The translations under genes were made by a program, and so were the position numbers. A stretch of DNA of 64,000 nt, from assembly GCA_947084965.1 (NCBI GenBank), contig CAMTUG010000003.1, forward strand, positions 64,360 through 128,359. Reading direction: 5' to 3'. This document shows positions 1 to 23,272 of the stretch, piece by piece. The notes beneath the pieces are model-generated. The model made no database searches. It saw only the letters and a list, made by a program, of their open reading frames with translations, and was not told the origin of the DNA. The DNA comes from an uncultured Parcubacteria group bacterium. GTDB lineage: Bacteria; Patescibacteriota; Patescibacteriia; UBA9934; CAMTUG01. The stretch's first letter is position 1. Each line of letters starts with the position of its first letter.

Positions 1-3000
1 GTTGTTATGAATGTGCCGTCTTCTTCAACCGACCAGTTGTTGCTGATCCCCGCGAGACGACCGACGTTCAATACGTCGTTACCGTTCAGGTAAATGTTTC
101 CACTCATGTTGAGCGTTGAGAGTTGGCCGGAGCTCGTGACGCGGGATGCGGTATTACTTGTGCCCGGCATTTGAGTTGTCCTGCTGCCGTCCCAATATCC
201 ACCTCGAACAAAGACCAAGATCGAATCGGTCGCGCTGCCCGATGCCTCCAAGGCGTACCCGATGATCTGGCCTGCGTTTGTCGCGCGCATGGCGTACCCT
301 GAGCGGGACGACGACGTGAGCGGATCTCCAACGGCGATCGCCCCGTTTTCATTGGTGACTTTCGTTGGAACGCGCCCGGCAAGGGCCACCGGGAAGGAGC
401 CGTCCGTATCTTCACCGGCGATGAATCCAGGATCTGTCGAGACGATACCGATCAGGTTGGCTTCATACGGCGCCGTTGACCGCTGGACGTTGGCACCATT
501 GAGCGCAAGCGACACAACGTCTCCTGGCTCAAGCTGCTGCGTTGATGGGAACATTTCAGCAAAGTCATACGAACCGACCTGCCAACCGGATGCGTTGGTC
601 TTCATGCGACCGTCCACCCCGGCGGTTGAATCGAAGAAGATATAGCGTTCTGTTTGCATCGTGCCGCGATCAGATGGATAGAGCCGGCCGCTGATCGCCA
701 GGTCACCGCCACTGCTGACATAGGCAACTTCGGTGCCATCGTTATTGGTAATTGAGAGACGTGCGTCGGTCGATCCGTCTTCCACCACGGTCTGTAAGTT
801 CATGCCAACGCCCATTGCGGAACCGGCATCCCAACCAGAACCGGCCAGCGTAAGGATATTACTGTCCGCGCTCGTTGTGGCAGTGGCCGTGCCGAGCGAA
901 GCGAGTCCCATAGCGTCGTTAATGATCGTGGCTACGCCGTCTGTCGTAATAATATTGCCTGCGAACCAACCCGGTTTGATGAGAACGGTGATTGATCCGA
1001 AGCCGGTCGTATGATTTTCGAGAGCGTACCCGATGATCACGCCCGGTTCTGTCGCCTTCATGGCGTAGCCGGTCGTAGAGGCAGAAGTGAGTGGATCCCC
1101 GATCGTGATCGCCCCGTTTTCTGCAGAGACAAAGGTCGGCACCTGACCGAGAAGGGCGATCGGATAGTAGTCTGGATCGTTACGGTAGTTCCCGACGAAC
1201 GCCGGAGCGGTCGAAACGACACCGATGACGTTGCTGTCATAGCTCGACGTAGATGCGATCACTCGCGCTGGATCAGCAGAATCAACCCGGACAACTTGTC
1301 CTGGAGCGAGTGACTCTGTGGAATAGAACATTTCCGCAAAGTCAGCCGGGGTGTTGTAGGTGGCGCCATCTCCAAAGACGTCCCCGTCAAGTTGGACGCG
1401 GAAGATGGTGTTCGGGGCGCCGTCGGCATCGGCACGAATGATGAAGACGTCCTCGTCATTTCCTTCGTCGGCTGCGGCCTCGTTCACATCAATCACCAGG
1501 GCCTGTTGGCCGATCGTGTCTCCGGCCTGGGCGTCAACACCGCTTTGAATAATGTAAACACCGACAGAGTCGCCGTTATTTGTTCCTGTACCACCCCCCA
1601 TGTTGCTGATCTTTAGTGCGTCGCCAGTTGTGGCCGTATTGTTGTTGGCCTGATCGATATACACCAGAGCGTCCGTTGCACCAGCGGTGAAGTCGGTACC
1701 GCTATCCGCACGATTGATTTTGATTCCACTGCCGGTGGTGAGGGCATCAACGGAGAGATCGATCCCGTCTCCGCTGGTGACAGTATTGTAGTCAAGGAGC
1801 ATCGCATCGATGACCGTTGAGTCGGTGATAAAGTTAAAGGAGCTCCCTGTCGAGCCGCCGGCGGTAATCCCCCCATCAAGCGTAAGGAACCCTCGGTTAT
1901 TGAGGTCAAAGATTTGATCGGGTGCACCAGTAACATTACTTCGAACGCGAATGACAGATTCAACGGACGTCGCTTGGTTGACATCGATAACAAGCGCTTG
2001 CTGCCCAACGTTATTCGCTCCCGGAGAGTCAACGTTATCTTGGATGATATAAACACCGGTTGCGGTTCCGCCACCGAGTTGACGAACCACCAACGCTTCG
2101 CCTGTGGTGCCGGCATTGTTGTTGGCTTGGTCAATGTAGACAAGGGCGTCTGAAGCGGTGTTGGCAGTGTAGTTTGTTCCGCTATCAGCCCGCTGGACGA
2201 AGATGCCTGAACCGGTTGTAAGAGCATCAACGCTCATGTTTAATCCGTCGTTGGTTGTTAAGGAGTCATACGTCATGGTCATGATATCAACACCAGCTGC
2301 TGCCGAAGTAAATTGGAAGCTGTCGTTGTTTGTGCCGTCTCCAAACACGACCCCCCCAATAGCCGTAAGGGTACCGATATCACTCAACGACATTTCAGCA
2401 GAACCACCTATGATGTTGAAATCAAGCTGTGAATTAGGCGCGGCCCCACCGGCGGTCAGGTTGTGGACAATCGTCGCGTCTCGGCTGGTCACAGTCACCG
2501 GCCCAACGGCCGCGTTCGAATCGAAGGATCCACGGAATGTCATGATCGGAGAGTCCAAAAATACGTTATCTGCAGCGTTGGACGACAAGAGCATTAAGGC
2601 GTCGTCGCTTCCCCCAGCAATCGTACCTGCGCCCGCATTAGGGTTAATTGTGTAGGTAGCTCCGGTATAGATAATGCTGCCGTCCGTATACGAGCTCGAT
2701 GTACCACCGCTTGATGTAATGATGACCGATCCGTTGGCCTCCACTCGGAAAACGTTTGTATTGGCACCGCCAAAATCTGTTTGAATGAGGAAGATATCGG
2801 CAGTACCGGTGTTTTCCGTCGTATCAATAAAGAAGGCCCGGCCGCTGTCATCGGTGAAGTTTCCAGCAGTAATCTGTAACGACTGTCCGGTTGTCATGAC
2901 CGACGTGTCGATCGTTACCCCGTTTGTTCCGGTGGCTTCTGAATCAATATTGATCGCGGTGTTATTGCCATTTTGATCGATAAATACTCCACTGCCGTTA

Positions 3001-6731: not shown

Positions 6732-6732
6732 A

Positions 6733-9700
6733 TTATGATTTTTCTGGTTTGGGGGCGGCATCGAGCTCGACGTCGATCGCGATCTCCCCTGGTTCCTTGC
6801 TTGTCGTCGTGTCGATCGGGCGGATTTCGACTTTCTGATACCCAGGTTTTTCGTACGTTGTGAAGTATTGGCTCGGTCCGACAAGGAAGCTGTAGCGGCC
6901 TTTGGCATCGGTGATCGCCGTTTCAAGGAGCTTGTTATATTTCGGTTCGAAGATGCGCACCACGGCGTTGCTCAGCGGTTGAGCCGTTCCTTTGTCGTAG
7001 ACGATCCCCCAGCCCTTTGGTTTATGCGCCTTGGCGAGGCGCCGTGTTCCAAGGAGCAGGAGTACCTGGATGATTGCACCCGCCGCGGTAATCCAACCCG
7101 GTCGGATGATGAAGATAAAGAAGGCGAGGGTGCAACCGATAGCCGCAATCGTATTTTGCAATAGGCGCAGGATACGTCGGATCACCAGTTTGCGCGCTTC
7201 GTGATATTCGGCCTTCTTCGTTGGATCGAGAGGGATGTTGACGGCGATTGTGGCATCGTTACTTTCTACCCGGATCGATTCTCCGTGGTAGACATCGAGG
7301 TAATTTCCGTCCTCTTTTGCCCCGTTCAAGATTTGCGATGGGAAGACGAATCCTGGCTTCAAAGCGATGATGCGATAGTCCCCTTCCTTCACAAGGAAGA
7401 AGAAGCGCCCTTCCTTATCTGTGACACGCGTCATGACCAGCTTGTTTTCCGGGAGTTTGTACAAGCGGACGATCGCCAGGTCGATCGGGGTTTTGAGGCC
7501 GGCGTGATAGACAACCCCCCAGGCTTTGCGTTTTTTGCGCCAGAGGAAGAGCACTGGCCAAGTCATCACGTACTGCAGGAGCGGGGCGAGCCCGAACAGG
7601 CTCCACAGCAGCCCAACAGAGGCGATACCGATCACGATGGCAGCAGGGACGGCGATGTCTGTCGCGACCTGGATTTCCGGTATGTTGCGAAGATCGTCGA
7701 AGATCGTTTTGATCGCCGAGATCACGGCGTCGGCTACAGCGACGGCGGTTTCCAGGGACGGTTCCCCTTCGGCGATAATCTCTGGGATCGTCATCGGAAC
7801 GCGAGAAATCTCGACGGTCAGGGTGGCGATGTTATTACTGACGACGAACGTGCTCGAGGTCGCGTCTTCGTAGCCAGACTTACTGACCTCTACGCGGTAC
7901 GTTCCGTTCTCTACGTACCAGGCGTAAGTGCCGTCTGAGCTCGTGGCGTCTGGGTTCGACTGTCCACCAAATTGGTAGACATCCATCAGTTCCCACGTGC
8001 CGAACTGACTTTGCATCAAAGAGACGATCGCTCCTGGGACACGCATCACGGCCCCCTCATACACTTCATAGACATAGCCGAGGTCGACGACGTTTAACGT
8101 GTAGTCGAACACCTGGCCCGTACCGTCTGTATAAAGGAAGGTCAGGGTAAGGTTGTATGAACCGGAGTCGTCCGGCGCCTGGATATACGCTCGGTATCCA
8201 TCGCCAGAAGATTCAAGGGACACGATGTAGGTATCTCCGTTTAGAGTCACCGTTACTGAGGCAACGTCTACGCCGCTAATGGCGTCTGCTGGAATGAAGA
8301 TCGAGAAGATCGTACTTGGGATGACATCGACCATGCCTTCGTCCGCTGAGAGTAAAATCGTGTCCTCAGCTGAATAAAACTCGGTGGCACTGCTCGTGGT
8401 CCCCGTACCTGTTGCAGGTGGGGTGATTTCCTCCGACGCTGTCTCTTCGTCGTCGGGAGTTTCTCCTCCTGGAGTTTCGGTAGTTGTCTCTCCATCGGGA
8501 GTCTCTTCGGTTTCCCCGCCCGGGATTTCGTCTTCTGGCACTTCCTCCTCATCGGTTGGTGGCACATCGGTCGCTTGTGGCGTGCAAGCCTTGGTCGTGC
8601 CTGAAGAGTAGTTCCCCCCGTCGTCAAAGACAAAGTGGGTACAGAAGTAGGTCGTGCTGTTCGTCAGACCGCTTACCGTTGTTGATTGCGTTGAGGCGCT
8701 GCCGCTGAAGTGGGTCGTGCCTTCGCTTTCGTCTTGCGGGTAACCGCTTGTCGAACAGGTGATCATCGATCCAGCGAGATCGTCTTCGCTTGGCATCGTC
8801 CAGTCAAAGTCGATCGCGGCGTCAGCGGCGGTACAGCTGAAGCCGGTGGCATTGGCTGGTGGAGTGTCTTCGGTCGTTGTAAAGGACGCGTTTCCGGACT
8901 CGGCTGCATCTCCATCATCGCCATCGCAGACGATGTTGAATTGATACTCCGTGCCCGAGTCGAGGCCTGAGATCGTTACGGTGTGTGACGTACCAGAACT
9001 CGACCCGGTCACTGAGCCATAGCTTTCGGTCAGACCGTATTCGATAGAACAGGTCGCCTCTTCGTTCGTATCAAATGTGACGGTCGCGGACGACGTTGTT
9101 TCGTCCATCACAGCAACATCACTGATCGCGAGCGCGGTGCTCGTATCGGTTGTGCAGGTTTCGTCGCTGCCGAATTCTTCGTCGCCTTCGGCGTCGGTAG
9201 AGCGCACGCGGTAATGGTAGGTCGTCCCGCTTGAAAGACCGGCGAGGACGATTTCGTGGCTGGTATCCAGCGTGGCGTCCGTTTCTGTTCCGGAAGCGTA
9301 GGACGACGTCAGACCGTAGTCGACGCTACTGTCGGCTGCGATGTTCGTATTCCAGGTGATCGAGAGGGTGGTGTCGCTGGCGGAACACGCGACGTTTGAG
9401 ATTGCAGGCGCGCTGGAAGCTCCCTCGCCACCTGGGTCTCCTCCTCCATCCCCACCAACGTCACCAACGGTCGCTGTGACGCCGATCGCGCTATCATCAA
9501 TGATCGGCAGAGCGATCGTTCCAAAGTCGCCGAACGTTCCTCCGATCGTAATGAAGTACGTTCCGGCAGATCCTGGATTGGTCACCTGTTCAGCACCGAC
9601 CCCTGACGCCGCTGCTTGATCGCCGATTTCGATCACGACTTCGCTCCCCGCCGCAATCGCCCCGCCATCCCCCGCACAGATCGTGATGGTCAGGATGTCG

Positions 9701-10041
9701 GCGGCAATGGCGACGGAGGCTTGTTCCGCGGCGGCACAGTTGGCGGCTGTGGTGAGATCAAGGCCGTCGTCGCTCACATCGACGTCGTCTTCATCAATCA
9801 GCGCCGTGTTAAAGGACGAGGCAAAACTAACGGTAATCGTCTCTCCTTCCGCCGCCCCGGATGGGGTTGTGAAGGTAATCGTGTGATTGCTCGCTTCCCC
9901 TGCTGTTTGGTCACTCATCAGGTCGCTTGCATCGGTCACGGTAGCTGCGTTGGCTACAGGAGCAAACCCCAACGACGGGAAGCCGAGGAGCATGCTGAGC
10001 GTGAAGATGCAGAAGCGTTTGATGATGAAGTGATGGGACAC
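6733..10041 (-). CDS. Large cell-surface protein of 1102 aa. Domain order is signal peptide, three fibronectin-III-like repeats, an acidic PT/E-rich linker, then three carboxypeptidase-regulatory-like (CarboxypepD_reg) beta-sandwich domains interleaved with transmembrane segments.
   Basis: ORF track entry. The FN3-like repeats show (SVDYGLTSSYASG...TTYHYRV; SIEYGLTESYG...TEYQFNIV). The CarboxypepD_reg-like stretches read (GTYRVEVSKSGYED; EGDYRIIALKPGF; KGRYSFLVGPSQYFTTYEKPGYQ). Hydrophobic helices fall around aa 795-830 and 950-990. Confidence 0.7.
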   Translation of the reverse strand: MSHHFIIKRFCIFTLSMLLGFPSLGFAPVANAATVTDASDLMSDQTAGEASNHTITFTTPSGAAEGETITVSFASSFNTALIDEDDVDVSDDGLDLTTAANCAAAEQASVAIAADILTITICAGDGGAIAAGSEVVIEIGDQAAASGVGAEQVTNPGSAGTYFITIGGTFGDFGTIALPIIDDSAIGVTATVGDVGGDGGGDPGGEGASSAPAISNVACSASDTTLSITWNTNIAADSSVDYGLTSSYASGTETDATLDTSHEIVLAGLSSGTTYHYRVRSTDAEGDEEFGSDETCTTDTSTALAISDVAVMDETTSSATVTFDTNEEATCSIEYGLTESYGSVTGSSSGTSHTVTISGLDSGTEYQFNIVCDGDDGDAAESGNASFTTTEDTPPANATGFSCTAADAAIDFDWTMPSEDDLAGSMITCSTSGYPQDESEGTTHFSGSASTQSTTVSGLTNSTTYFCTHFVFDDGGNYSSGTTKACTPQATDVPPTDEEEVPEDEIPGGETEETPDGETTTETPGGETPDDEETASEEITPPATGTGTTSSATEFYSAEDTILLSADEGMVDVIPSTIFSIFIPADAISGVDVASVTVTLNGDTYIVSLESSGDGYRAYIQAPDDSGSYNLTLTFLYTDGTGQVFDYTLNVVDLGYVYEVYEGAVMRVPGAIVSLMQSQFGTWELMDVYQFGGQSNPDATSSDGTYAWYVENGTYRVEVSKSGYEDATSSTFVVSNNIATLTVEISRVPMTIPEIIAEGEPSLETAVAVADAVISAIKTIFDDLRNIPEIQVATDIAVPAAIVIGIASVGLLWSLFGLAPLLQYVMTWPVLFLWRKKRKAWGVVYHAGLKTPIDLAIVRLYKLPENKLVMTRVTDKEGRFFFLVKEGDYRIIALKPGFVFPSQILNGAKEDGNYLDVYHGESIRVESNDATIAVNIPLDPTKKAEYHEARKLVIRRILRLLQNTIAAIGCTLAFFIFIIRPGWITAAGAIIQVLLLLGTRRLAKAHKPKGWGIVYDKGTAQPLSNAVVRIFEPKYNKLLETAITDAKGRYSFLVGPSQYFTTYEKPGYQKVEIRPIDTTTSKEPGEIAIDVELDAAPKPEKS

Positions 10042-10071: not shown

Positions 10072-11115
10072 TTACTTCGGCGGACACTCCTCACGAATGA
10101 TCGTCTGTCTGTACGACTTCATGAGTAGAATGAGAGCGACGATCGCGATCATGACGAGGATCAGGAGCTGCCAAGGGATAACCCAGAAGTTCGTTGATGC
10201 TGTTGTGATCGTGTCGCCGGTGCCGTAGCTCATGACGAGCGTTGCTTGGTATAGGCCTAGGCCGAAGTTGCGCCATTCGTCGACGAGTTCGATGGCATCG
10301 GCCGGGACTTCGTTCTTTTGCCAATGCACAGTGAATTGGCGAGTGGAGTTTGGGAGGACGTATCCGCCCTCGGCGTTGACGGGGATCGTAGCGCTTTCGT
10401 TCCCGAGCATGTTCGTAATATGGATCTCTCCAAACGGGGCGAGATGAGTGGTACCCGCATTTTGGAAGCGAACATCAAAGGTGATAGGGAGCGATGACGT
10501 CGTTTTTGGAGTGGCGGTGAATTCCAGGATCGCTCCTGATTCCGTCGCAGCTCCTTCGACCGAGATGAGAACGAGCGTTCCTATCTTTACCACTGTTGCC
10601 AGTTCGTCCTGTATCCGTGGCAAGGCGGTACTCATGAGGAGACCACCAAAGTAGCTCCCCGGCGTCGTTCCTTCGGGAACACGAATGGTGAAGGCGACGT
10701 AGCGCGTCTCGTCTGGCGCAAGGGTCACAGTCGAACTTTCAAACTCGACCCACGAAGCGATCGATCGTTCGGATTGAACCCCCTCCGATAAAAAGTGAGG
10801 AGTTCCGGTTTCGTCGTCGGCCGCGATGAAGTCCTGTACGGTCGGGTAGAGCGTTTCTGCGACCTCCGTCTCATTGTGTAGTCGTACTGTGCCAGCGATC
10901 TCTTCGCCTGGCTTGACGCTATACTCCATGATCAACGGAGACACAGATAAGGCCTGCGCGGATTGTGTGCCGGCAAAGCAGAGGGCAAGGATCGCCAGAA
11001 CGATAAGTCCGCGTTGTTTTGAGTGGGCTTCGGACATACTGTGGACTTGGGCGGCAGGGAGAAAACGTACAAGCATGTGGCGTCTTCTTCCTGCTTTATG
11101 AAGTCCACGGCTCAA
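10072..11115 (-). CDS. Secreted protein with a C-terminal membrane anchor, 347 aa as listed. The likely true start is the ATG at 11037, which gives a canonical signal peptide. Its architecture resembles DUF916/CscA-type surface-complex proteins.
   Basis: ORF track. The N-region SEAHSKQRG plus LIVLAILALCFAG and an AQA|LS cleavage site make a signal peptide. The C-terminal WQLLILVMIAIVALILLM helix is followed by basic residues. It is adjacent to, and co-oriented with, the other surface-protein genes. Confidence 0.55.
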   Translation of the reverse strand: MSRGLHKAGRRRHMLVRFLPAAQVHSMSEAHSKQRGLIVLAILALCFAGTQSAQALSVSPLIMEYSVKPGEEIAGTVRLHNETEVAETLYPTVQDFIAADDETGTPHFLSEGVQSERSIASWVEFESSTVTLAPDETRYVAFTIRVPEGTTPGSYFGGLLMSTALPRIQDELATVVKIGTLVLISVEGAATESGAILEFTATPKTTSSLPITFDVRFQNAGTTHLAPFGEIHITNMLGNESATIPVNAEGGYVLPNSTRQFTVHWQKNEVPADAIELVDEWRNFGLGLYQATLVMSYGTGDTITTASTNFWVIPWQLLILVMIAIVALILLMKSYRQTIIREECPPK

Positions 11116-11148: not shown

Positions 11149-12087
11149 CTAATAGTTACCGGTGACGACAAAGGTTAGGACGTGCGAGTAAGCACCGCTC
11201 GCTGTGGTGACGCTCGCTGCTGCTTTTAGCGTAAGGAAATCTCGCGAGTCGTAGGATGTATCATTCCTTGTCCCGATCGCCTGGAATGACCCCGTGATCG
11301 CGGTGTCCTCTGTGTCAAAGGTCGAGGTCGCGAGTGAGCCGTCTGACGAGATCGCTCCGTACTCCTCGTTTCCAATATCCACGCTTCCTCCCACCACATC
11401 ATCAATATCGTTCGCTCCAGAAGTGAGATTTTCATCCTCCTGAAGCTGAATTGTGTAGCCGTTTGGACTATCAGCGGTGATGTTCCACCCGATCACTCCG
11501 GTTGAGACTTCGGTTGTTGTGATTTCTCCAAGAGAGACGGATGTTCCGTCAAGAAGGTAGACAGCGTCGTTTGTACCATCGATGACTGGGGCGGTGCCGC
11601 TGTCTGTAAGGGAATCAACGGTCAGTGTATCTGCGTCCTTGGACACAAGCTGTCCGATAGCAGAGACCTGGGCCGCGCCTTCGTCCTGGATGAGGACGAT
11701 GTAGTCACCAACGGTAAAGGCCCCGGTCGCTCCAACTTCGATCGCTGTTCCTGCGTATGAATTGGCAGTTGTCGTCGTCGCAGCCACCTGGGGGAGCAGG
11801 GAATAGGTAAGGACCTGATCCTGAACTCCTTGTCGGTAACCGGCACGCAGGGCGTAGCTGGCGCTGGTTGATGATCCGATCGCGGTGTTACCGATCGTGT
11901 CACGGAGCTGGTAAGAGGCTGAGGAAGAGTCATCGCTTCCGCCAGAGCTAATCGTGTCCCACTCGATCGTGTAGCTGGCTGACGACATGGCGGCAGATAC
12001 GGAACCGGTATTGAAAAGGAGCGCAAGCAAGAGAATGCTGGCGGATAGTGCAAAAAAGGCGTTCTTTTTGTTTTTCCTTACCTGCAT
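11149..12087 (-). CDS. Small secreted Ser/Thr-rich beta protein of 312 aa, the first gene of the surface-protein locus.
   Basis: ORF track. The signal peptide reads MQVRKNKKNAFFALSASILLLALLFNTGSVSA|A. It has repeated SASY-x-L/I motifs and no transmembrane segment. It is followed within 33 nt by the next gene. Confidence 0.55.
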   Translation of the reverse strand: MQVRKNKKNAFFALSASILLLALLFNTGSVSAAMSSASYTIEWDTISSGGSDDSSSASYQLRDTIGNTAIGSSTSASYALRAGYRQGVQDQVLTYSLLPQVAATTTTANSYAGTAIEVGATGAFTVGDYIVLIQDEGAAQVSAIGQLVSKDADTLTVDSLTDSGTAPVIDGTNDAVYLLDGTSVSLGEITTTEVSTGVIGWNITADSPNGYTIQLQEDENLTSGANDIDDVVGGSVDIGNEEYGAISSDGSLATSTFDTEDTAITGSFQAIGTRNDTSYDSRDFLTLKAAASVTTASGAYSHVLTFVVTGNY

Positions 12088-12817: not shown

Positions 12818-12893
12818 TGGTGGACTTGAGGGGAGTCGAACCCCTGACCTCTGCAATGCGAATGCAGCGCTCTACCAACTGAGCTACAAGCCC
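12818..12893 (-). tRNA. tRNA-Ala (anticodon CGC), with CCA encoded.
   Basis: The reverse complement folds as a cloverleaf with a G3:U70 acceptor pair, the anticodon loop tt-CGC-at, and a GGTTCGACTCC T-arm. Confidence 0.8.
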
Positions 12894-12907
12894 ATTATGG
12901 ATCAGCA

Positions 12908-12927
12908 AATGTTTCACGTGAAACATT
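12908..12927. promoter_or_regulatory. Perfect 20-bp palindrome AATGTTTCACGTGAAACATT, copy 2, in the spacer between tRNA-Ala and tRNA-Arg.
   Basis: Read directly. It shares the 16-bp core of copy 1, and a half-site GTTTCACGTGG recurs at 13038-13048. Confidence 0.6.
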
Positions 12928-12933
12928 ACTATG

Positions 12934-13009
12934 TGGTGTCCCCGCCACGACTCGAACGTGGATTAGGGGATTAGGAATCCCCGGTTTTATCCCGTTAAAC
13001 TACAGGGAC
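12934..13009 (-). tRNA. tRNA-Arg (anticodon CCT), with CCA encoded.
   Basis: The reverse complement reads GTCCCTG...GGGGA-TTCCTAA-TCCCC...GTTCGAGTC...CGGGGAC-A-CCA. Confidence 0.75.
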
Positions 13010-13116: not shown

Positions 13117-14205
13117 ATGAATGAAACATTTCTCAGTGGAATTGTGATCGTCGGGCTCATTGCTGTCATTGCAACAGTCCTTGTTACCCGCAAAAAGAAT
13201 TCGGGGTCTTCAGATGGTTCGCAAAATGTAATGTTGGAGGTGATCGAGGCGTTGCGCAGGGAGTTGCGCGAGGCACAGCAGCACCAGCAGACGCAAACGC
13301 GCGAGCAGCTTGATCATCTCAATGATCAGATGATGCGTTCGCTCACCGGATCACAAAAGATCATCGCCGAAGTAACCGAAAAGTTAACGGCTATCGATCA
13401 GACCAATAAGCAGGTTCTTGATTTTTCCGGCCAGCTGAAAAATCTGCAGAGCATTTTGCAAAATCCAAAGCATCGCGGTGTGCTTGGGGAGTATTGGCTT
13501 GAGACGCTGCTTGGAAATGTTTTGCCACCAGACGCGTACAAGATGCAGTACAAAATTGGTGCTGATGAAGACACGGGCTCACCGCTCATCGCTGACGCAG
13601 CGATCTTTGTGCGCGATCAGATCATTCCGATCGACGCCAAGTTCTCGCTCGAGAACTACAATCGTATGATGGCCGAAGAGGGAAAGGAGGCGCGGGAGCG
13701 ATTTGAAAAAGAACTGAAAGCCGACGTAAAGAAGCGGATCGATGAAACCTCTAAATACATCCGTCCGCAGGACGGCACACTCGGCTTTGCCTTCATGTTT
13801 ATTCCGGCCGAAGGCGTTTACTATAATTTGCTGAACGCCGAAGTTGGCTCATCGATCAACAGCATGAACTTGATTGAGTATGCCTTTGGAAAGCACGTGC
13901 TGATCGTTTCGCCAACGTCATTTTTTGCGTACCTCCAAACCGTGCTGTTGGGACTGCGCGAATTGCAGTTGGAAAAGTCGACGCAAGAAATTTTGAAACG
14001 CGTCACTCTTTTGGGTCGACACATCCATCAGTATTCAGATCTGCACGATCGTATTGGAAAGAATTTAACGACCGTGGTCAATCAATATAATCTGAGTTCC
14101 AAGGAGCTCGAGAAGATCGACGGCGACATTCACAAAATCACGAGTGGGGAGGTTGGTGGGGCGATGATGATCGAAAGTGTTTCCAAGCCTGATGAACAGA
14201 GTTGA
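13117..14205 (+). CDS. rmuC: DNA recombination protein RmuC.
   Basis: It has an N-terminal transmembrane segment, a coiled-coil, and RmuC nuclease-like motifs (IPIDAKFSLENY; FMFIPAEGVYY). Confidence 0.75.
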   Translation: MNETFLSGIVIVGLIAVIATVLVTRKKNSGSSDGSQNVMLEVIEALRRELREAQQHQQTQTREQLDHLNDQMMRSLTGSQKIIAEVTEKLTAIDQTNKQVLDFSGQLKNLQSILQNPKHRGVLGEYWLETLLGNVLPPDAYKMQYKIGADEDTGSPLIADAAIFVRDQIIPIDAKFSLENYNRMMAEEGKEARERFEKELKADVKKRIDETSKYIRPQDGTLGFAFMFIPAEGVYYNLLNAEVGSSINSMNLIEYAFGKHVLIVSPTSFFAYLQTVLLGLRELQLEKSTQEILKRVTLLGRHIHQYSDLHDRIGKNLTTVVNQYNLSSKELEKIDGDIHKITSGEVGGAMMIESVSKPDEQS

Positions 14206-14220
14206 TCCCACTCCTGCCCC

Positions 14221-15189
14221 GTGATAGTCTCCGCTCTGGAGGCTTACATGACCCAGCCCTTTAACCTGCAGCGACTGTGTGTCCCGTCGGACGAAGCTCG
14301 CCGGACGGCGAGGCACGAGCTGACCCTCTCGATGATTCGGGTGGGGTTCACTCGCCTCGTCGATCATGGCGTTGATTCGGCGCTCGTCGAGCGCGTGCGA
14401 TGGATCACGTCTCAACTCTACACCCTGCCCGAAGCGGTGCTTCTCGCCTGTGATGGCCGGCCATTCGACGTCCAGCGCGGCTACGGACCCATCGGCACCG
14501 AAGCCTACGAAGGACAGAAGCTCGAGCTGAAGCGGATGTTCTCGGTCGGCGACTACCCGGGTGAGCACCCGCTCTACGGGAGCTACCCACTCTTCTGGCC
14601 GCTCGATCCTGCCGATCTCGTGGAGGTCATGCGTCTCTACGATGCGCTTCTCGAGATCGCCATCCTGCTGACCCGGGCGATCGTCATCGATCTCGGGCTC
14701 CCTCCGGACGACTTCATGCGTCCCTCGGAACGGACCGACTCGGTCTTCCGCCTGCTCGAGAATCCGGCGCTTCCCGAGGACGCTACCACAGCATCGTTCT
14801 GTCGCAACAACCGACACGTCGATTCCGGGATGCTGACCGTGATGGTTCCGGCGACCGTCCCCGGACTGGTGGTCGAAGGATCTGACGGCGTGGCTCGGCA
14901 GTTCGGCTGCGAAGGGGGCGAACTCGTGGTGAACACGGGGCGACTCCTCGAGCTGATGCTCGCGGCTCGGCGCGCGGAGATCGACCGTGAACGCTTCCCG
15001 GTTCTCCCGACCGCCCGCCCGCACTGGGTCGAGATCGTCCCGGGCCACACCGGTGCCCGCAACTCTTTCCCGTTCTTCCTTTGGCCCGACCCGCACCGCC
15101 CGATCGGTGACGGTCGGTGCGCCTGGGAACACCTGCGGGACGAACTCACCCGCCACAAGACCCGCCAGCAGGTTCGCGTCTCCTCATGA
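14221..15189 (+). CDS. Isopenicillin-N-synthase-family 2-oxoglutarate/Fe(II)-dependent oxygenase (oxygenase A). GC is about 64%.
   Basis: It has a DIOX_N-like N-terminus, an HVDSGMLTV (HxD) motif, and a C-terminal H...RxS pattern (HTGARNSFPFFLWP). It starts with GTG at 14221, with an ATG alternative at 14248. Confidence 0.6.
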   Translation: MIVSALEAYMTQPFNLQRLCVPSDEARRTARHELTLSMIRVGFTRLVDHGVDSALVERVRWITSQLYTLPEAVLLACDGRPFDVQRGYGPIGTEAYEGQKLELKRMFSVGDYPGEHPLYGSYPLFWPLDPADLVEVMRLYDALLEIAILLTRAIVIDLGLPPDDFMRPSERTDSVFRLLENPALPEDATTASFCRNNRHVDSGMLTVMVPATVPGLVVEGSDGVARQFGCEGGELVVNTGRLLELMLAARRAEIDRERFPVLPTARPHWVEIVPGHTGARNSFPFFLWPDPHRPIGDGRCAWEHLRDELTRHKTRQQVRVSS

Positions 15190-15289
15190 TCCTGCTCCCT
15201 AAGACCGCGCCTCCCACTTCTCGGGCGGCGCGGAGTCTGTTTATTGACAGACCGATAGTTGGGCACTAGTCTCTGTTTGGGAGGTACTT

Positions 15290-15916
15290 ATGTTTGGATG
15301 GAAGCCAGAAGTTCCGCAACTGGTCATCGCGGGTGGGCCCGGTTCGGGGAAGGACAAGGTGATCGCTCGCATCCTCGCTACCTACCCGGGGGCGTTCCAC
15401 GTCCTCGGGGAGACCGCCGGGATGTTCATCCGCGCCCACGCTCTCGAGCCGCCGTTCCTCGGCGAAGACCTGAGCGTCTGGCAGAAGGCGATCGCCGCCG
15501 CCCAGCACGCCGCCGAAGAGATGGGGCAGATCATGGCCCGCCGCAAGAACGCGCTCGTTCTCTGCAACCGCGGTCGGCCGGACGGCGCTGGCTACATCGA
15601 CGGAGGGATCGATCACTTCCTGACCTTCGTCGGTGGAACCCTCTCGGACCACCTCGATCCCTACGACATGGTCATCTTCCTCGACACCCCGGACGAGGAG
15701 ATCTACGTCTCGACCACTGCGCCCGGGGCGGATGGGTACAATCCCGACCGCTTCGAGACGCACGAACAGGCTGTCCACCGTGCTCTTCGCCTGAAGGCGA
15801 TCTGGACGCTCCACCCGGACTGTCGTGTCGTTCCGGCGATGCCGACGATCGAACGGAAGTTCGAGGGAGTCGCCGGCCACATCGATGAGTTCCTGCGTCG
15901 TCACGGCAGGAACTGA
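15290..15916 (+). CDS. P-loop NTPase, a putative small-molecule or nucleoside kinase-like protein of 208 aa. GC is about 66%.
   Basis: It carries a Walker A motif GGPGSGKD near the N-terminus and has an RBS (GGGAGG) upstream. Confidence 0.55.
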   Translation: MFGWKPEVPQLVIAGGPGSGKDKVIARILATYPGAFHVLGETAGMFIRAHALEPPFLGEDLSVWQKAIAAAQHAAEEMGQIMARRKNALVLCNRGRPDGAGYIDGGIDHFLTFVGGTLSDHLDPYDMVIFLDTPDEEIYVSTTAPGADGYNPDRFETHEQAVHRALRLKAIWTLHPDCRVVPAMPTIERKFEGVAGHIDEFLRRHGRN

Positions 15917-16037
15917 CCTCACAGATCACGCGTTGGCCGCTCTGGTACTCAGGGCGGCTTCGACGTTAGTGGGCCCAGCATTTGCAGAGATTTTTGATCA
16001 TTGCTAGGGTGGACGCGTCCCCAACCCGGAGCCTTTC

Positions 16038-17093
16038 ATGTCCACCCTCCGCCTGCGCAACATCGACCTCACGCCGATCACGCTCTCCGCGCACAGCGGG
16101 GAGGCCAGCGACAGGGTTGCTCACCGCGTCGTCGATTCCCTCGTCGAGACCGGGGCCGTCGTCGTCCGGAGCCCATTTGTCCAAGACGGCGACAATACGA
16201 GCTACCTCAAGATGCTCGAAGGCTACTGCGGCCGCTCCCAGGAAGAGCTCCGTGCTGACGAGCGCCCCGAAGCCTTCCGTCAGGTGGGGATCACCCTTCC
16301 CGGCGGCGAGGACTTCCACCTGAGCCAGCACTTCCGTGATCAGCTCGGCTGTCGGATGCTGACCGGCGATCGGGCGCCCTACCCCTGTGACGGAGCGAAT
16401 CTCCACATGCGCTTCTTCTGGCGCCACGGCGAGCGTCGTCACAGCCGCCTCTTCCCGCAGTCGCACGCGGACCCCGTGATCCCCGCCGGGATCCCTGAGT
16501 GGGAAGCGACGATGACCGGCTGGGGCAACAAGATGTACGCTTCGGGCGAGCTTCTGATGCGCCACGTCGAGCGCGGACTGGGTGTCACTCCCGGCTCCCT
16601 CGTCGAGATGCTCCGCTTCGGCCCGCATCTCGTCGCCCCGACCGCGATCGATCTCGCCGGCCTGCCTCTCGGGACGGTCACGAGCGATGTGCACACCGAC
16701 TTCAACCCGCTGACCCTCCACGGAGCTGCGGCGTACTCGACGCTCGTCTGCTGGACCAAGGGCGGGCTTCCGTTCCTGGTCCGCGTCCCGCCCGGATGTC
16801 TGCTCGTCCAAGCCGGCGTCGGTCTCGAGTGGATGACCGGTGGGGCGATCAAGGCCGGCTACCACCAGACGGTCGTCCTGCCCGAGACGATCCGGCAGAT
16901 CGAGACGCTCGCTCCCGGGCGCTCGACCATTCGCGCGTCGAGCACCTTCTTCCTTCACTTCGACTGGGAGGCGACGCTCCAGGTTCTCCCCGAGCTTCGC
17001 TACCCCGGCTGCGACGATCTCTACACGTCGATGCTCGTCGGCGACCACGCCCTCCAGGTCATCCGGGCGATCGGTCTGGCCAAGCAACGCTGA
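16038..17093 (+). CDS. Isopenicillin-N-synthase-family 2OG/Fe(II) oxygenase (oxygenase B). GC is about 65%.
   Basis: It has a DIOX_N-like N-terminus (ITLSAHSGEASDRVAHRVVDSLVETGAVVVRSPF), an HTDFNPLTLH facial-triad HxD motif, and a downstream His/Arg. Confidence 0.65.
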   Translation: MSTLRLRNIDLTPITLSAHSGEASDRVAHRVVDSLVETGAVVVRSPFVQDGDNTSYLKMLEGYCGRSQEELRADERPEAFRQVGITLPGGEDFHLSQHFRDQLGCRMLTGDRAPYPCDGANLHMRFFWRHGERRHSRLFPQSHADPVIPAGIPEWEATMTGWGNKMYASGELLMRHVERGLGVTPGSLVEMLRFGPHLVAPTAIDLAGLPLGTVTSDVHTDFNPLTLHGAAAYSTLVCWTKGGLPFLVRVPPGCLLVQAGVGLEWMTGGAIKAGYHQTVVLPETIRQIETLAPGRSTIRASSTFFLHFDWEATLQVLPELRYPGCDDLYTSMLVGDHALQVIRAIGLAKQR

Positions 17094-17152
17094 GAGTTCT
17101 CATCATCAATCGAAAACCGCGCCTCTCGTTACTCGAGTGGCGCGGCTTCGTT

Positions 17153-17419
17153 TTATTTTCCGAGTTTGTTGACCGCGATCATCATGCGGGATTTGAGGCG
17201 GGCAGCGGTGTTTTTCTTCATCACCTTTTTGCCGGCCGCTTTGTCCATCTTGGTTGCGAGGGACTGAGCGAGCTTTTTTGCTTCCTCAATCTTCTTGTCT
17301 TTGATCGCTACCTTCAGGTGGCGGCGGAGCGAGGTGATCTCGTCCTTGACCGTTTTGTTGCGGAGAGCGCGTTTGACGCTCTGGCGCAACGCTTTTTTGG
17401 CGTTTGCTAGATTTGGCAT
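17153..17419 (-). CDS. rpsT: 30S ribosomal protein bS20.
   Basis: The N-terminus MPNLANAKKALRQSVKRALRNK... is the typical bS20 N-terminus. Confidence 0.85.
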   Translation of the reverse strand: MPNLANAKKALRQSVKRALRNKTVKDEITSLRRHLKVAIKDKKIEEAKKLAQSLATKMDKAAGKKVMKKNTAARLKSRMMIAVNKLGK

Positions 17420-17437
17420 ATAGAAAGTGCTGGAAGA

Positions 17438-22435: not shown

Positions 22436-23272
22436 CTACATCGCGGCCTGCTGCTCGTAGCCGAGCTTGTTGCCGGCGATCGGCTTGTAGGTGAGCTCGG
22501 TCACGGGGCCGTCGGAGGTGTCGCGGGACTTGCCCATGACCAGCGTGTCGTCCTTGCCGGCGACCGGGCCGACGATCTGGAACTTCGCCTTCTTCTGGCT
22601 GAGGACCGCGAAGTTGCCGTTCCAGGCGACCTTGTAGCTGGTCTTGGGGCCCGAGACGTAGTAGACGTCCTCGTTGGCCGGGCGGGAGATGGTGGTCACC
22701 ACGTCGTCGAAGGTGCCGACCTGCTCGGCCTTGAACTCGGCGTCGTCCTTGAGCCAGGCGATGAGGTCGTCCTTCTTCATGAAGTGGGCGGCGTTCTTGG
22801 TGACGATCCGCAGCCCGTCCTTCCCGTCGTTGAGGTCCTGGATGTCCGCGAGCGGGATCTCCTTCATCTTCATGCCGGCGATGCCGACCTTGGCGACCTT
22901 GTCGGTGAGCGCCAGGCCGAAGCCGGTCGAGAAGTTGGGGGTGGAGGTGGAGGAGAGGAGCTTGCCGTCGAACTCGTCGCGCGCGACCGAGTCGTTGATC
23001 TTGGCGTCCGCGACGTAGCCGACGACCTTGGTGTTGGTGTCGAAGTCGATCGCGAAGACGTGGCCGATCTGGGCCTTGGTGTCGATGTCGAACTGCACGG
23101 CGACGGACGGCTTCACGTCGAGCTCGTCCTTGGCGTTGGGGGTCTGCTGGACCTGGAACTGGTAGGTCGGGTTCTCCAGGTCGAGGCTGAACCCGACGAT
23201 GTTGGCGCGGTTGATGGTGACGGCGGTGTCGCCGAGGGTGTCGATGTTGCCGGTGAGGATCAGGAGGTGCAC
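22436..23272 (-). CDS. Hypothetical protein of 278 aa, GC about 64%, starting with GTG.
   Basis: Its amino-acid composition looks like a real protein. It is followed on the minus strand by a hairpin plus T-run terminator (22333-22371). Confidence 0.5.
   Translation of the reverse strand: MHLLILTGNIDTLGDTAVTINRANIVGFSLDLENPTYQFQVQQTPNAKDELDVKPSVAVQFDIDTKAQIGHVFAIDFDTNTKVVGYVADAKINDSVARDEFDGKLLSSTSTPNFSTGFGLALTDKVAKVGIAGMKMKEIPLADIQDLNDGKDGLRIVTKNAAHFMKKDDLIAWLKDDAEFKAEQVGTFDDVVTTISRPANEDVYYVSGPKTSYKVAWNGNFAVLSQKKAKFQIVGPVAGKDDTLVMGKSRDTSDGPVTELTYKPIAGNKLGYEQQAAM

What the first reader, a model, noticed from the sequence alone, without database searches (positions are those of the whole stretch)
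14221..17093. High-GC three-gene cassette: two IPNS-family 2OG/Fe(II) oxygenases flanking a P-loop kinase-like gene
This stretch is about 64-66% GC against roughly 50-55% for the flanking rmuC, rpsT, holA and polA. Codon third positions are strongly G/C-biased, which is consistent with horizontal acquisition.

The outer genes both carry the DIOX_N-like N-terminus and the HxD...H facial triad of the isopenicillin-N-synthase/2OG oxygenase family (HVDSGML in A; HTDFNPL in B). The middle gene has a Walker A motif GGPGSGKD.

An oxygenase-kinase-oxygenase set looks like a small-molecule tailoring or hydroxylation-then-phosphorylation module, and I do not recognise it as a described pathway. Long Arg-rich ORFs on the opposite strand are typical high-GC antisense shadows.
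Basis: partly seen in the sequence, partly recalled or inferred. Interest (0 to 1): 0.65.

Follow-up and report, generated by a model that had tools for sequence, protein, structure and literature searches.

The report
Foreign oxygenase–kinase island in a Patescibacterium
About 2.9 kb of GC-rich foreign DNA, carrying two oxygen-dependent iron enzymes and an unusual ATP-binding protein, sits between two housekeeping genes of a small-genome (Patescibacteria) bacterium; the three genes are real and intact, but they are not a known or conserved pathway.

Summary
Three + strand genes lie at 14248-15189 (A), 15290-15916 (B) and 16038-17093 (C). GC is 65.3%, against 53.8±2.1% for the rest of the window, and GC3 is 79-86%.

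A and C are catalytically complete Fe(II)/2-oxoglutarate oxygenases (His-x-Asp…His plus Arg-x-Ser) and are not paralogs of each other. B is an AAA_28 P-loop protein with an atypical Walker A (GKD) and NRG in place of the family's DRG.

Horizontal acquisition now has direct support. A relative's contig (L011) has rmuC and rpsT 49 nt apart, where the window has 2952 nt. The host is a Patescibacterium.

The island looks composite. A diverged copy of the host rmuC/rpsT terminator separates A from B-C.

The "oxygenase-kinase-oxygenase pathway" reading is not supported:
- B's only close homolog sits alone at another chromosomal site in a relative.
- C's family (fungi, giant viruses, a few bacteria; uncharacterised) never has A- or B-like neighbours in the 10 contexts checked.

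C is not nested within fungi, so a fungal donor is not indicated. Substrates remain unknown. This is an ordinary kind of thing (an accessory island) carrying unusual, uncharacterised enzymes.

The parts
14212..17106 (.). Inserted island (about 2.9 kb, GC 65%), absent from a relative. Boundaries are accurate to about ±8 nt.
   Evidence: blastn of L011 against the window: L011 33-1019 matches window 13212-14198, and L011 1069-1338 matches window 17151-17420. The gap is 49 nt in L011 and 2952 nt in the window. Junction alignment. GC z-score is about 5.
13117..14205 (+). rmuC, the host gene at the left flank. Its stop codon lies 6 nt before homology with the relative is lost.
   Evidence: Pfam RmuC 8e-50. 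94% aa identity to P0286 on L011.
14248..15189 (+). Gene A: a 313-aa Fe(II)/2OG oxygenase from a near-orphan branch. Catalytic residues are H190-x-D192, H259 and R271-x-S273, with a 12-aa insert before the distal His. SD GGAGG at 14238-14242.
   Evidence: DIOX_N 5.7e-13. PDB 3oox 8e-13. BLASTP to Cupriavidus and Klebsiella 2OG oxygenases, 7e-16 and 6e-18, aligns H259 and R271xS273 with their distal His and RYS. Only one relative above 40% identity was found, in a word-index search of 5.8 billion proteins. dN/dS 0.26 against it.
15201..15245 (+). T1: a terminator-like hairpin after A. It is a diverged copy (34 of 45 nt) of the native rmuC/rpsT terminator T2.
   Evidence: the repeat finder family D1. 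RNA fold -24.5 kcal/mol, z -3.9. The motif CCGCGCC..GGCGCGG occurs only twice in 64 kb, expected 0.03. T1 is similar to T2 (p<0.0005) but not to the relative's terminator (p 0.46).
15244..15284 (+). Promoter-like TTGACA (15244-15249), a 17-nt spacer, TAGTCT (15267-15272), and SD GGGAGG (15279-15284) ahead of B.
   Evidence: Read directly from the sequence. The consensus scan did not call it because the -10 hexamer matches only 3 of 6. This is an inference.
15290..15916 (+). Gene B: a 208-aa AAA_28 P-loop protein, nucleoside/nucleotide-kinase-like. It has Walker A GGPGSGKD, GETAG and NRG where the family has GK[ST], PE.AT and DRG.
   Evidence: AAA_28 4.5e-8 at 33.9 bits, cut-off 27. Exhaustive HMMER: 565 hits, only one above 40% identity. 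Family alignment. Family profile against PDB: thymidylate kinase 1.5e-4, adenylate kinase. dN/dS 0.20.
16038..17093 (+). Gene C: a 351-aa Fe(II)/2OG oxygenase of an uncharacterised family found in fungi, giant viruses and a few bacteria. Catalytic residues are H219-x-D221, H276 and R299-x-S301. SD GGAG at 16028-16031.
   Evidence: 203 homologs, of which the best 120 are fungal or metagenomic at 33-39% identity. Catalytic columns are invariant. AF2 pLDDT 90.7. Foldseek 3oox 1.9e-20, T7H, EFE. Tree.
17113..17157 (.). T2: the native bidirectional terminator shared by C and the convergent rpsT. It is orthologous to the single hairpin in the relative's empty site.
   Evidence: RNA fold -24.5 kcal/mol, z -4.2. 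Similar to the hairpin of L011, p about 0.003. Alignment.
17153..17419 (-). rpsT (ribosomal protein S20), the host gene at the right flank.
   Evidence: Pfam Ribosomal_S20p 1e-15. 85.9% nt identity to L011 1069-1338.

Best explanation
This is a composite, horizontally acquired accessory island of about 2.9 kb in the chromosome of a Patescibacteria (CPR) bacterium. It sits exactly between the rmuC stop codon and the rmuC/rpsT bidirectional terminator.

Shown:
- The island is absent from a relative.
- It has foreign composition and codon usage.
- It carries three intact genes under purifying selection.
- A and C are mutually unrelated Fe(II)/2OG oxygenases with complete His-x-Asp…His and Arg-x-Ser motifs.
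- B is a divergent AAA_28 P-loop protein.

Inferred:
- The island was built in at least two steps, A on one side and B-C on the other, because a copy of the host terminator lies between A and B.
- A is its own transcription unit. B and C are co-transcribed from a promoter in the A-B spacer and end at the native terminator.
- Each oxygenase binds Fe(II) and 2-oxoglutarate and uses O2 to hydroxylate, or otherwise oxidise, a small-molecule substrate.
- B binds an NTP and most likely phosphorylates a nucleoside- or nucleotide-like acceptor.

The genes are best seen as individually useful cargo enzymes, gathered at an insertion-prone intergenic site, that convert scavenged metabolites under oxic conditions. 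They are not an obligate three-step pathway. The substrates are unknown.
For: Host assignment. The RpoC 90% cluster holds 'Patescibacteria group bacterium' MEK9131126.1.

Empty site. L011 has rmuC (83.5% nt identity) and rpsT (85.9%) separated by 49 nt, against 2952 nt in the window.

Composition. GC 65.3% against 53.8±2.1%. GC3 0.79-0.86. RSCU correlation is 0.82-0.90 among A, B and C, but 0.31-0.72 with host genes.

Real genes.
- Family hits occur on the + strand only.
- SD motifs lie 5-6 nt upstream of each ATG.
- dN/dS is 0.26 for A and 0.20 for B.

Catalytic completeness. C. A.

A and C are not paralogs: BLASTP E 0.01, hhalign probability 42%.

Composite origin. The T1 hairpin is a copy of native T2. 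The motif occurs only twice in 64 kb. T2, but not T1, resembles the relative's terminator.

Not a conserved module.
- B's homolog sits alone between a small ORF and tig in a syntenic relative.
- C homologs in L004-L009 and L013-L017 have no A or B neighbour.

Not a chimera. The A(3' part)-B-C-rpsT-holA-polA join is reproduced in a Logan assembly. The island also contains host-derived sequence (T1).
Against: - No biochemical data exist, and the substrates are pure inference.
- Similar codon usage, and equal divergence of A and B from their only relatives (67% aa, dN 0.27 each), would also fit a single donor and a shared function.
- Adjacency of three foreign enzyme genes could itself reflect selection for co-function.
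- The context evidence is thin: one short contig for B, none usable for A.
- Only one empty-site relative is available and it is not close (dS about 1.6), so deletion in that lineage is not formally excluded.
- The left junction (rmuC-A) is seen only in the NCBI contig. The Logan contig starts inside A and may come from the same reads.
- B's Walker A Asp and NRG may mean it is not a conventional kinase.
- The B-C promoter is a weak consensus match.
Confidence: 0.55

Rival explanations
1. One reading: the three genes are one co-functional oxygenase-kinase-oxygenase pathway. For example, they hydroxylate a small molecule and phosphorylate the new hydroxyl, or salvage a nucleoside. They were acquired together from one donor.
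For: - The three genes are adjacent, on the same strand, inside one insertion.
- They share codon usage, r 0.82-0.90.
- A and B are equally diverged from their single relatives, dN 0.27 each.
- B-C look co-transcribed.
- B's family resembles nucleotide kinases.
- The best characterised fold match of C is thymine-7-hydroxylase.
Against: - A host-derived terminator copy lies between A and B.
- B's homolog occurs without A or C, followed by a terminator and tig.
- C homologs never have A- or B-like neighbours in 10 contexts.
- No riboswitch or shared regulator was found.
- Five other genes in the window share the same codon usage, so shared usage does not tie A, B and C to each other specifically.
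Confidence: 0.22
2. The genes are neutral or decaying cargo. They are a recent acquisition with no role in the host. B is catalytically dead (Walker A Asp, NRG), and the oxygenases are idle in an organism that is expected to lack a 2-oxoglutarate supply and to live mostly without oxygen.
For: - B has atypical P-loop and DRG positions.
- A's only relative is truncated before the distal His.
- Composition is un-ameliorated.
- No conserved context was found.
Against: - All three ORFs are intact, with SD sites.
- The catalytic residues of A and C are complete.
- dN/dS is 0.2-0.26.
- B's unusual residues are conserved in P0124 at 67% identity.
Confidence: 0.13
3. The island is ancestral at this locus and was deleted in the lineage of L011. 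On this view it is a loss there, not a gain here.
For: Only one comparison genome is available, and it is diverged (dS about 1.6).
Against: - GC and GC3 are far from the host's, and codon usage differs.
- A and B have almost no relatives anywhere.
- B sits at a different site in another relative.
- The terminator is duplicated at the insertion.
Confidence: 0.06
4. The island is an assembly or binning artefact: a piece of a high-GC organism joined by mistake into a Patescibacteria contig.
For: There is an abrupt GC step at both ends. The Logan contig breaks inside A.
Against: - The C-rpsT-holA-polA join is reproduced in a second assembly.
- The junctions fall precisely at a stop codon and at the native terminator.
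- A copy of the host terminator lies inside the island.
- The window holds other single genes of the same compositional class.
Confidence: 0.04

Closest known systems
CC_0200 of Caulobacter crescentus (PDB 3oox), a putative 2OG-Fe(II) oxygenase of unknown function
   Same: It is the best solved-structure match for both A (8e-13) and C (1e-6 for the single sequence; family profile 3e-17; Foldseek 1.9e-20, TM 0.73/0.83). It has the same DIOX_N plus double-stranded beta-helix architecture, and the same HxD…H and RxS motifs.
   Different: Identity is only 18-30%. Its own function is unknown, so it gives no substrate. A has a 12-aa insert before the distal His. C has extra segments of about 40 residues.
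Thymine-7-hydroxylase (T7H) of Neurospora crassa (PDB 5c3p), from the fungal thymidine salvage pathway (PMC4787775)
   Same: It is the closest characterised fold match of C (Foldseek 1.1e-18, TM 0.73; profile 1.2e-7), and a weak sequence match of A (1.5e-4). It is an Fe(II)/2OG oxygenase that acts on a free nucleobase.
   Different: Identity is 13-16%. The substrate-binding residues were not compared. Neither A nor C is an ortholog. Nothing here shows a pyrimidine substrate.
Fungal 'isopenicillin N synthase-like Fe(2+) 2OG dioxygenase domain-containing protein' family, e.g. Cryptococcus neoformans CNAG_04968 and Thermothelomyces MYCTH_2315449
   Same: C aligns over its full length at 33-39% identity (E down to 1e-57). 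There are 34 invariant columns, including all catalytic residues.
   Different: In the tree C lies outside the fungal clade. It pairs with fungi in 3 of 100 bootstraps and with the low-GC prokaryote-like contig L004 in 59 of 100. The family has no published function: no paper mentions CNAG_04968. Members also occur in giant viruses and a few bacteria.
AAA_28 (PF13521) P-loop proteins, including CYTH/TTM-AAA_28 fusion proteins, with distant resemblance to thymidylate and adenylate kinases
   Same: B scores above the Pfam cut-off. It shares the family's P-loop, the invariant Glu41, Arg94, Asp98 and the NP.R.E motif. The family profile hits thymidylate kinase across the DR motif. Many relatives carry a CYTH triphosphate-tunnel domain, 5e-21 to 3typ/2fbl.
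   Different: B and P0124 alone have GKD, GETAG and NRG where the family has GK[ST], PE.AT and DRG, plus an 8-residue insert (TTAPGADG). B has no CYTH domain. No member of the family is characterised, and no NadR-type model matches.
Isopenicillin N synthase proper
   Same: Same structural superfamily and same HxD…H motif.
   Different: IPNS structures are not among the top sequence or fold matches. The exception is the mis-named P. aeruginosa 'IPNS' 6jyv, which the sequence file describes as 'probable iron/ascorbate oxidoreductase'. From my own knowledge, IPNS does not use 2OG. The label 'IPNS family' should be read as the DIOX_N/2OG-FeII_Oxy class.

Membership tests
Fe(II)/2-oxoglutarate oxygenase, DIOX_N + 2OG-FeII_Oxy class | N-terminal DIOX_N domain followed by a double-stranded beta-helix fold | tested here: met
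   C: AF2 pLDDT 90.7; Foldseek 1.9e-20 to 3oox, then T7H, EFE and ANS. A: Pfam DIOX_N at 50 bits, cut-off 27.3; PDB 3oox 8e-13 over residues 32-246.
Fe(II)/2-oxoglutarate oxygenase, DIOX_N + 2OG-FeII_Oxy class | His-x-Asp…His iron-binding facial triad | tested here: met
   C: H219, D221 and H276 are invariant in a 28-sequence family alignment. A: H190, D192 and H259 align with the triad of the Cupriavidus and Klebsiella enzymes. MAFFT alone misplaced A's distal His because of a 12-aa insert.
Fe(II)/2-oxoglutarate oxygenase, DIOX_N + 2OG-FeII_Oxy class | Arg-x-Ser that binds the C5 carboxylate of 2OG, 10-25 residues after the distal His | tested here: met
   C: R299-x-S301, invariant. A: R271-x-S273 aligned with RYS.
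Fe(II)/2-oxoglutarate oxygenase, DIOX_N + 2OG-FeII_Oxy class | Pfam PF03171 score above the gathering threshold (23 bits) | tested here: not met
   A scores 16.7 bits and C scores 17.4 bits. Both are too divergent for the single-domain model. Membership rests on the structure- and profile-level evidence above.
Fe(II)/2-oxoglutarate oxygenase, DIOX_N + 2OG-FeII_Oxy class | 2OG- and O2-dependent turnover | not testable with these tools
   Needs purified protein.
Isopenicillin N synthase (sensu stricto) | Closest relatives are IPNS orthologs | tested here: not met
   The top PDB and Foldseek matches are 3oox, EFE, T7H and ANS, not bona fide IPNS.
Uncharacterised CNAG_04968-like oxygenase family (fungi, giant viruses, rare bacteria) | Full-length alignment with the family-specific invariant columns (e.g. 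Y63, R125, W162-G163, H228-G229, Q258-A259, S302) | tested here: met
   C shows 33-40% identity over 88-100% of its length and shares 34 invariant columns. Its tree position is a long branch beside L004, outside fungi.
AAA_28 P-loop family (PF13521) | Pfam score above the gathering threshold | tested here: met
   B scores 33.9 bits against a 27-bit cut-off. There are 109 relatives at E<=1e-10 in the exhaustive search.
AAA_28 P-loop family (PF13521) | Canonical Walker A, GxxxxGK[ST] | tested here: not met
   B and P0124 have G-G-P-G-S-G-K-D. The 18 other aligned relatives have S or T at this position.
AAA_28 P-loop family (PF13521) | Family-conserved acidic residue of the D-R-G motif (Walker B / DR-motif equivalent) | tested here: not met
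   B and P0124 have N-R-G. At least 90% of relatives have D. The following R94 and D98 are conserved.
AAA_28 P-loop family (PF13521) | Phosphotransfer (kinase) activity | not testable with these tools
   Only weak profile similarity to thymidylate and adenylate kinases is available. The AF2 model of B failed, pLDDT 40.
NadR-type ribosylnicotinamide kinase | Match to curated NadR/RNK models or structures | tested here: not met
   No NCBIfam hit. The PDB NMNAT/NadR-like entry 9x6f matches only at E 0.38, over the P-loop.
Horizontally acquired genomic island | Composition and codon usage deviating from the host | tested here: met
   GC 65.3% against 53.8±2.1%. RSCU correlation of 0.31-0.72 with host genes.
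Horizontally acquired genomic island | Empty site in a related genome | tested here: met
   L011 has 49 nt between rmuC and rpsT, against 2952 nt in the window. This rests on a single relative.
Horizontally acquired genomic island | Mobility genes (integrase, transposase) or att-like flanking repeats | tested here: inconclusive
   The island has no integrase or transposase; all its coding capacity is A, B and C. A 45-nt direct repeat (the terminator copies T1 and T2) flanks B-C only. tRNA genes lie about 1.2 kb upstream but are not at the junction.
Known anti-phage defence systems or phage gene families | Match to PADLOC or PHROG models | tested here: not met
   No PADLOC hit for any of the three proteins. 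The only PHROG hit is a weak unknown-function one for A, 8e-6. There are no A or B relatives in IMG/VR.

The most novel reading that the evidence does not exclude
The island is an oxygen-dependent salvage module for nucleosides or nucleobases in a nucleotide-auxotrophic Patescibacterium.

It would be a bacterial counterpart of the fungal thymidine salvage route. From my own knowledge, that route uses two 2OG oxygenases: a pyrimidine deoxyribonucleoside 2'-hydroxylase, whose gene I believe is still unassigned, and T7H. Here those would be joined to a nucleoside-kinase-like P-loop protein.

If so, gene C would also give a first function to an uncharacterised oxygenase family conserved across fungi and giant viruses.

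The evidence does not exclude this:
- T7H is the closest characterised fold of C.
- B's family resembles nucleotide kinases and fuses to triphosphate-tunnel domains.
- One C homolog lies two genes from a thymidine kinase (L004).

None of it tests the idea.
Probability: 0.07. Interest if true: 0.8.

Novelty: new member of a known kind. Interest (0 to 1): 0.35.

Why it matters
Patescibacteria (CPR) have minimal, largely fermentative metabolisms and depend on scavenging. From my own knowledge, they are not expected to make 2-oxoglutarate through a TCA cycle.

A cleanly delimited insertion that adds two O2/2OG-dependent oxygenases and a P-loop enzyme is a concrete example of how such cells gain accessory chemistry by gene transfer. 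It also hints at life in oxic settings.

The case gives three experimentally tractable orphan enzymes:
- a near-unique 2OG oxygenase (A);
- a P-loop protein with a conserved Ser/Thr-to-Asp and Asp-to-Asn swap at the presumed Mg2+ site (B);
- a bacterial member of a widespread but unstudied fungal and giant-virus oxygenase family (C).

Beyond that it is an ordinary accessory island. Nothing found here points to a new kind of system.

Tried and rejected
1. Fungal donor for C. The top 120 hits are fungal or metagenomic. However, an NJ tree puts C outside the fungal clade (3 of 100 bootstraps inside), and intact homologs exist in bacterial genome bins and in giant-virus contigs. Rejected as unsupported.

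2. A and C as duplicated paralogs. BLASTP E 0.01 and hhalign probability 42%. Rejected.

3. Minus-strand or alternative-frame ORFs as the real genes. No Pfam hits, and the wrong GC3 pattern. Rejected.

4. Defence system or phage cargo. No PADLOC hits. One weak PHROG hit. No A or B relatives in IMG/VR. Rejected.

5. Riboswitch or other known RNA in the spacers. No Rfam match at E<=1.

6. Structure of B. AF2 on the 2-sequence alignment gave pLDDT 40, which is unusable. Hits from the exhaustive search cannot be used for modelling.

7. Metagenome scan for B-family contexts. The tool chose the Walker A peptide as its pattern and returned one irrelevant locus, L010.

9. Conserved neighbours of C homologs. 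The five prokaryotic-bin contexts and the five viral contexts contain no A- or B-like gene. For the Myxococcales (L006) and Nannocystis (L008) contigs I only listed the flanking ORFs and did not annotate them.

10. Literature. No paper covers CNAG_04968, CYTH+AAA_28, or 2OG oxygenases in CPR.

11. L007, the 'Verrucomicrobiaceae' hit, was discarded as bacterial evidence. Its homolog is interrupted by intron-like segments with in-frame stops.

12. MAFFT placed a Glu of A at the distal-His column. Pairwise BLASTP to two closer enzymes shows this is an alignment artefact caused by a 12-aa insert.

Full report
OBSERVATION

They are A at 14221/14248-15189, B at 15290-15916 and C at 16038-17093.

The stretch 14221-17093 is 65.3% GC. 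All other windows of 2873 nt in the 64 kb average 53.8% (sd 2.1, maximum 59.1), and the flanking 5 kb are 52-54%.

On the + strand GC3 is 0.79, 0.82 and 0.86 for A, B and C. For the long antisense ORFs (363, 218 and 373 aa, 11-12% Arg) the richest position is codon position 1, which is the signature of a shadow frame. The three antisense ORFs and the two alternative-frame + strand ORFs that I scanned have no Pfam match.

A most likely starts at ATG 14248:
- GGAGG lies 5 nt upstream.
- The 313-aa product is the one on record.
- The only homolog starts at the equivalent position.

B (GGGAGG) and C (GGAG) also have Shine-Dalgarno motifs 5-6 nt upstream.

WHAT THE PROTEINS ARE

Protein A.
- It matches Pfam DIOX_N (5.7e-13) and solved 2OG oxygenases: 3oox 8e-13, an ancestral ethylene-forming enzyme 1e-12, ANS, and T7H at 1.5e-4.
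- Pairwise BLASTP to annotated 2OG oxygenases of Cupriavidus (7e-16) and Klebsiella (6e-18) aligns H190-x-D192, H259 and R271-x-S273 of A with their iron triad and 2OG-binding RxS. It shows a 12-residue insert in A just before the distal His.
- A multiple alignment had misplaced that His.

Protein C.
- It falls below the Pfam threshold (17.4 bits).
- It aligns over its full length with a family of about 200 proteins. H219, D221, H276, R299 and S301 are invariant there.
- The family profile hits 3oox at 3e-17 and T7H at 1e-7.
- An AlphaFold model (pLDDT 90.7) matches 3oox, T7H and EFE at E about 1e-20 to 1e-17, TM about 0.7.

A and C are not paralogs: BLASTP E 0.01, hhalign probability 42%.

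Protein B.
- It is an AAA_28 protein, 33.9 bits against a 27-bit cut-off.
- An exhaustive HMMER search of 1.84 billion representatives gave 565 relatives, but only one above 40% identity.
- Many relatives are proteins of about 365 aa that fuse this domain to an N- or C-terminal domain. That domain matches the CYTH/triphosphate-tunnel proteins 3typ and 2fbl at 5e-21.
- A profile of the B family weakly matches thymidylate kinase (1.5e-4, across the DR motif) and adenylate kinases.
- B and its one close relative differ from the rest of the family at three conserved active-site positions: Walker A G-K-D instead of G-K-S/T, GETAG instead of PE.AT, and N-R-G instead of D-R-G.
- These changes are conserved between the two proteins, whose dN/dS is 0.20.
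- 'Kinase' is therefore an inference.

No NCBIfam or PADLOC model matches any of the three proteins. The only PHROG match that reaches significance is one of unknown function for A, 8e-6.

WHERE IT SITS AND HOW IT GOT THERE

Host. The window's RpoC clusters at 90% identity or more with a protein named 'Patescibacteria group bacterium'. The host is therefore a CPR bacterium.

Empty site. The same look-up showed that RmuC has a 94%-identical relative on a 1404-bp NCBI contig (L011).
- L011 33-1019 aligns to window 13212-14198 (83.5% nt identity).
- L011 1069-1338 aligns to window 17151-17420 (85.9%).
- The two blocks are 49 nt apart in L011 and 2952 nt apart in the window.
- Homology is lost about 6 nt after the rmuC stop codon and resumes at the terminator hairpin next to rpsT.

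This is an empty site: the relative has rmuC, one hairpin and rpsT, with none of A, B or C.

Codon usage. RSCU of A, B and C correlates at 0.82-0.90 with each other and only 0.31-0.72 with host genes. Horizontal acquisition is thus supported by two independent lines of evidence.

Assembly. A Logan assembly of run ERR3478686 reproduces A(3' part)-B-C-rpsT-holA-polA exactly. It may derive from the same reads, and it starts inside A.

THE ISLAND IS COMPOSITE

A 45-nt direct repeat lies after A (T1, 15201-15245) and after C (T2, 17113-17157), with 34 of 45 positions identical.
- Both copies fold into strong hairpins followed by T-runs: -24.5 kcal/mol, z about -4.
- The stem motif CCGCGCC…GGCGCGG occurs only at these two places in 64 kb, where 0.03 are expected.
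- T2 resembles the single hairpin of the relative's empty site (p about 0.003). T1 does not (p 0.46), but T1 resembles T2 (p<0.0005).

So T2 is the native rmuC/rpsT terminator and T1 is a copy of it. This places host-derived sequence between A and B.

The simplest reading is at least two insertion events at this terminator, A on one side and B-C on the other. This is an inference.

T1 is followed by TTGACA, 17 nt, TAGTCT and the SD of B. That suggests two transcription units, A and B-C.

No integrase, transposase or known RNA element is present.

IS IT A PATHWAY?

Homologs.
- A has one relative: P0002, 67% identity, on an 814-bp contig of 64% GC, truncated before the distal His.
- B has one relative: P0124, 67% identity, on the 1777-bp contig L001.

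L001 is syntenic with another part of the window (43996-44960):
- a GGDEF-like gene (tblastx 3.6e-18);
- a small ORF (BLASTP 2e-11);
- the start of the next gene, MANIKRENL against MATIKREDV.

In that relative the B homolog sits alone between the small ORFs and that downstream gene, followed by its own terminator, with no A or C. The window has no insert at that site. B therefore occupies different chromosomal sites in related genomes.

C-family genes were found in the following contexts:
- a low-GC prokaryote-like contig (L004);
- a gammaproteobacterial MAG contig (L005);
- a Myxococcales MAG (L006);
- a Nannocystis MAG (L008);
- another Patescibacteria genome, next to prfA (L009);
- five viral contigs (L013-L017). 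Two are giant-virus MAGs by name, and a third (L014) carries Rpb1, the P11 capsid protein and YqaJ.

None of these has an A- or B-like neighbour. The three-gene set is thus unique to this locus and is not a conserved operon.

Points in favour of co-function:
- the genes are adjacent;
- they share codon usage, although five other genes in the window share it too;
- A and B are equally diverged from their relatives, dN 0.27 each.

I put the single-pathway model at about 0.2. I put the model of a composite island of individually useful cargo enzymes at about 0.55.

ORIGIN OF C

The fungal dominance of the hit list (Calcarisporiella, Geosiphon, Kwoniella/Cryptococcus, Agaricomycetes, Sordariales) suggested inter-domain transfer.

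An NJ tree does not support a fungal donor:
- The fungi form a clade that mirrors their taxonomy.
- C lies outside that clade on a long branch with L004 (59% bootstrap).
- C groups inside fungi in 3 of 100 replicates.

One 'bacterial' hit, L007, is interrupted by intron-like segments and is probably a eukaryotic contaminant.

The family is best described as an uncharacterised oxygenase family of fungi and giant viruses with sporadic bacterial members. The Cryptococcus ortholog CNAG_04968 is annotated as hypothetical, and no paper in the library mentions it.

MECHANISM

Shown: two complete Fe(II)/2OG catalytic centres and one P-loop.

Inferred from established knowledge of the superfamilies:
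- A and C each couple the decarboxylation of 2OG to hydroxylation, or a related oxidation, of a small molecule using O2.
- B binds an NTP and probably transfers phosphate to a nucleoside- or nucleotide-like acceptor.

The closest characterised fold of C is T7H, which oxidises free thymine in the fungal thymidine salvage pathway (PMC4787775). That, together with B's kinase-like family, makes nucleoside or nucleobase conversion my best guess for the substrate class. Nothing tests this, and I give the specific salvage-module reading about 0.07.

VERDICT

The horizontal-transfer inference is strongly supported. The 'oxygenase-kinase-oxygenase module' interpretation is not supported.

This is a new instance of a known kind of thing: a small accessory genomic island. 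It carries three uncharacterised and in part unusual enzymes in a Patescibacteria genome. Interest is moderate to low, at 0.35.

Noticed in passing
window 22436-23272 (-), 38491-39258 (+), 57461-58363 (-), 60794-61615 (-), 63192-63998 (-): At least five more genes have GC3 between 0.73 and 0.97, with codon usage like that of A, B and C (RSCU r 0.73-0.87) and unlike the core genes. One is a methyltransferase. The other four have no Pfam hit. The genome seems peppered with single-gene insertions of one compositional class.
   Followed up: partly
L001 994-1614, compared with window 44557-44920: The only close homolog of B is inserted between a small ORF and the gene starting MANIKRENL in a syntenic relative. 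The window's counterpart, at 44921, starts MATIKREDV and is probably trigger factor (my reading of the N-terminus only). The window has no insert at that site. That copy has GC3 0.63, against 0.82 here.
   Followed up: yes
L011 (JAUSMZ010000354.1, GCA_030645935.1): This contig is binned as 'Sedimentisphaerales bacterium' but is 84-86% identical in nucleotides to the window's rmuC and rpsT, so it is probably a mis-binned Patescibacteria contig. Its rmuC has TGT where the window has the stop TGA, and it reads on through the antisense of rpsT.
   Followed up: partly
L007 334-1362 (JAIYDP010000463.1, 'Verrucomicrobiaceae' MAG): The C-family homolog is broken by segments with in-frame stops that look like introns, and the contig GC is 46%. 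It is probably eukaryotic DNA in a bacterial bin.
   Followed up: partly
P0128-P0160 and others (relatives of B): A family of proteins of about 365 aa fuses a CYTH/triphosphate-tunnel domain to the AAA_28 domain, in either order. The CYTH domain matches 3typ and 2fbl at 5e-21 but is missed by Pfam at E<=1e-3. I found no literature on the fusion.
   Followed up: partly
L013-L017 (IMG/VR); L009 8001-9083: C-family oxygenases occur in viral contigs. Two are giant-virus MAGs by name, and L014 carries Rpb1, the P11 capsid protein and YqaJ. A divergent one (24% identity) lies next to prfA in another Patescibacteria genome. CPR genomes have therefore picked up this family more than once.
   Followed up: partly
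L002 21-785 (protein P0002): The only close homolog of A ends at residue 254, before the distal His, 29 nt from the contig end. It could be a pseudogene or an error at the contig end.
   Followed up: no
L004 223-807 and 2788-3921: On the low-GC contig that carries the nearest prokaryote-like relative of C, a thymidine kinase gene lies two genes away on the opposite strand. This is suggestive for a nucleoside link, but it is a single case.
   Followed up: no
window 1-6926 (-) and 6733-10041 (-): There are two very long ORFs on the minus strand: about 2300 aa, running off the window start, and 1102 aa. The two ORFs downstream of them (10072-11115 and 11149-12087) begin with hydrophobic, signal-peptide-like segments (my reading of the translations). 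I did not analyse any of these ORFs.
   Followed up: no
window 12818-13009: tRNA-Ala(CGC) and tRNA-Arg(CCT) lie about 110 nt upstream of rmuC, roughly 1.2 kb from the island's left edge. They are not at the junction, so they are probably unrelated to the insertion.
   Followed up: no
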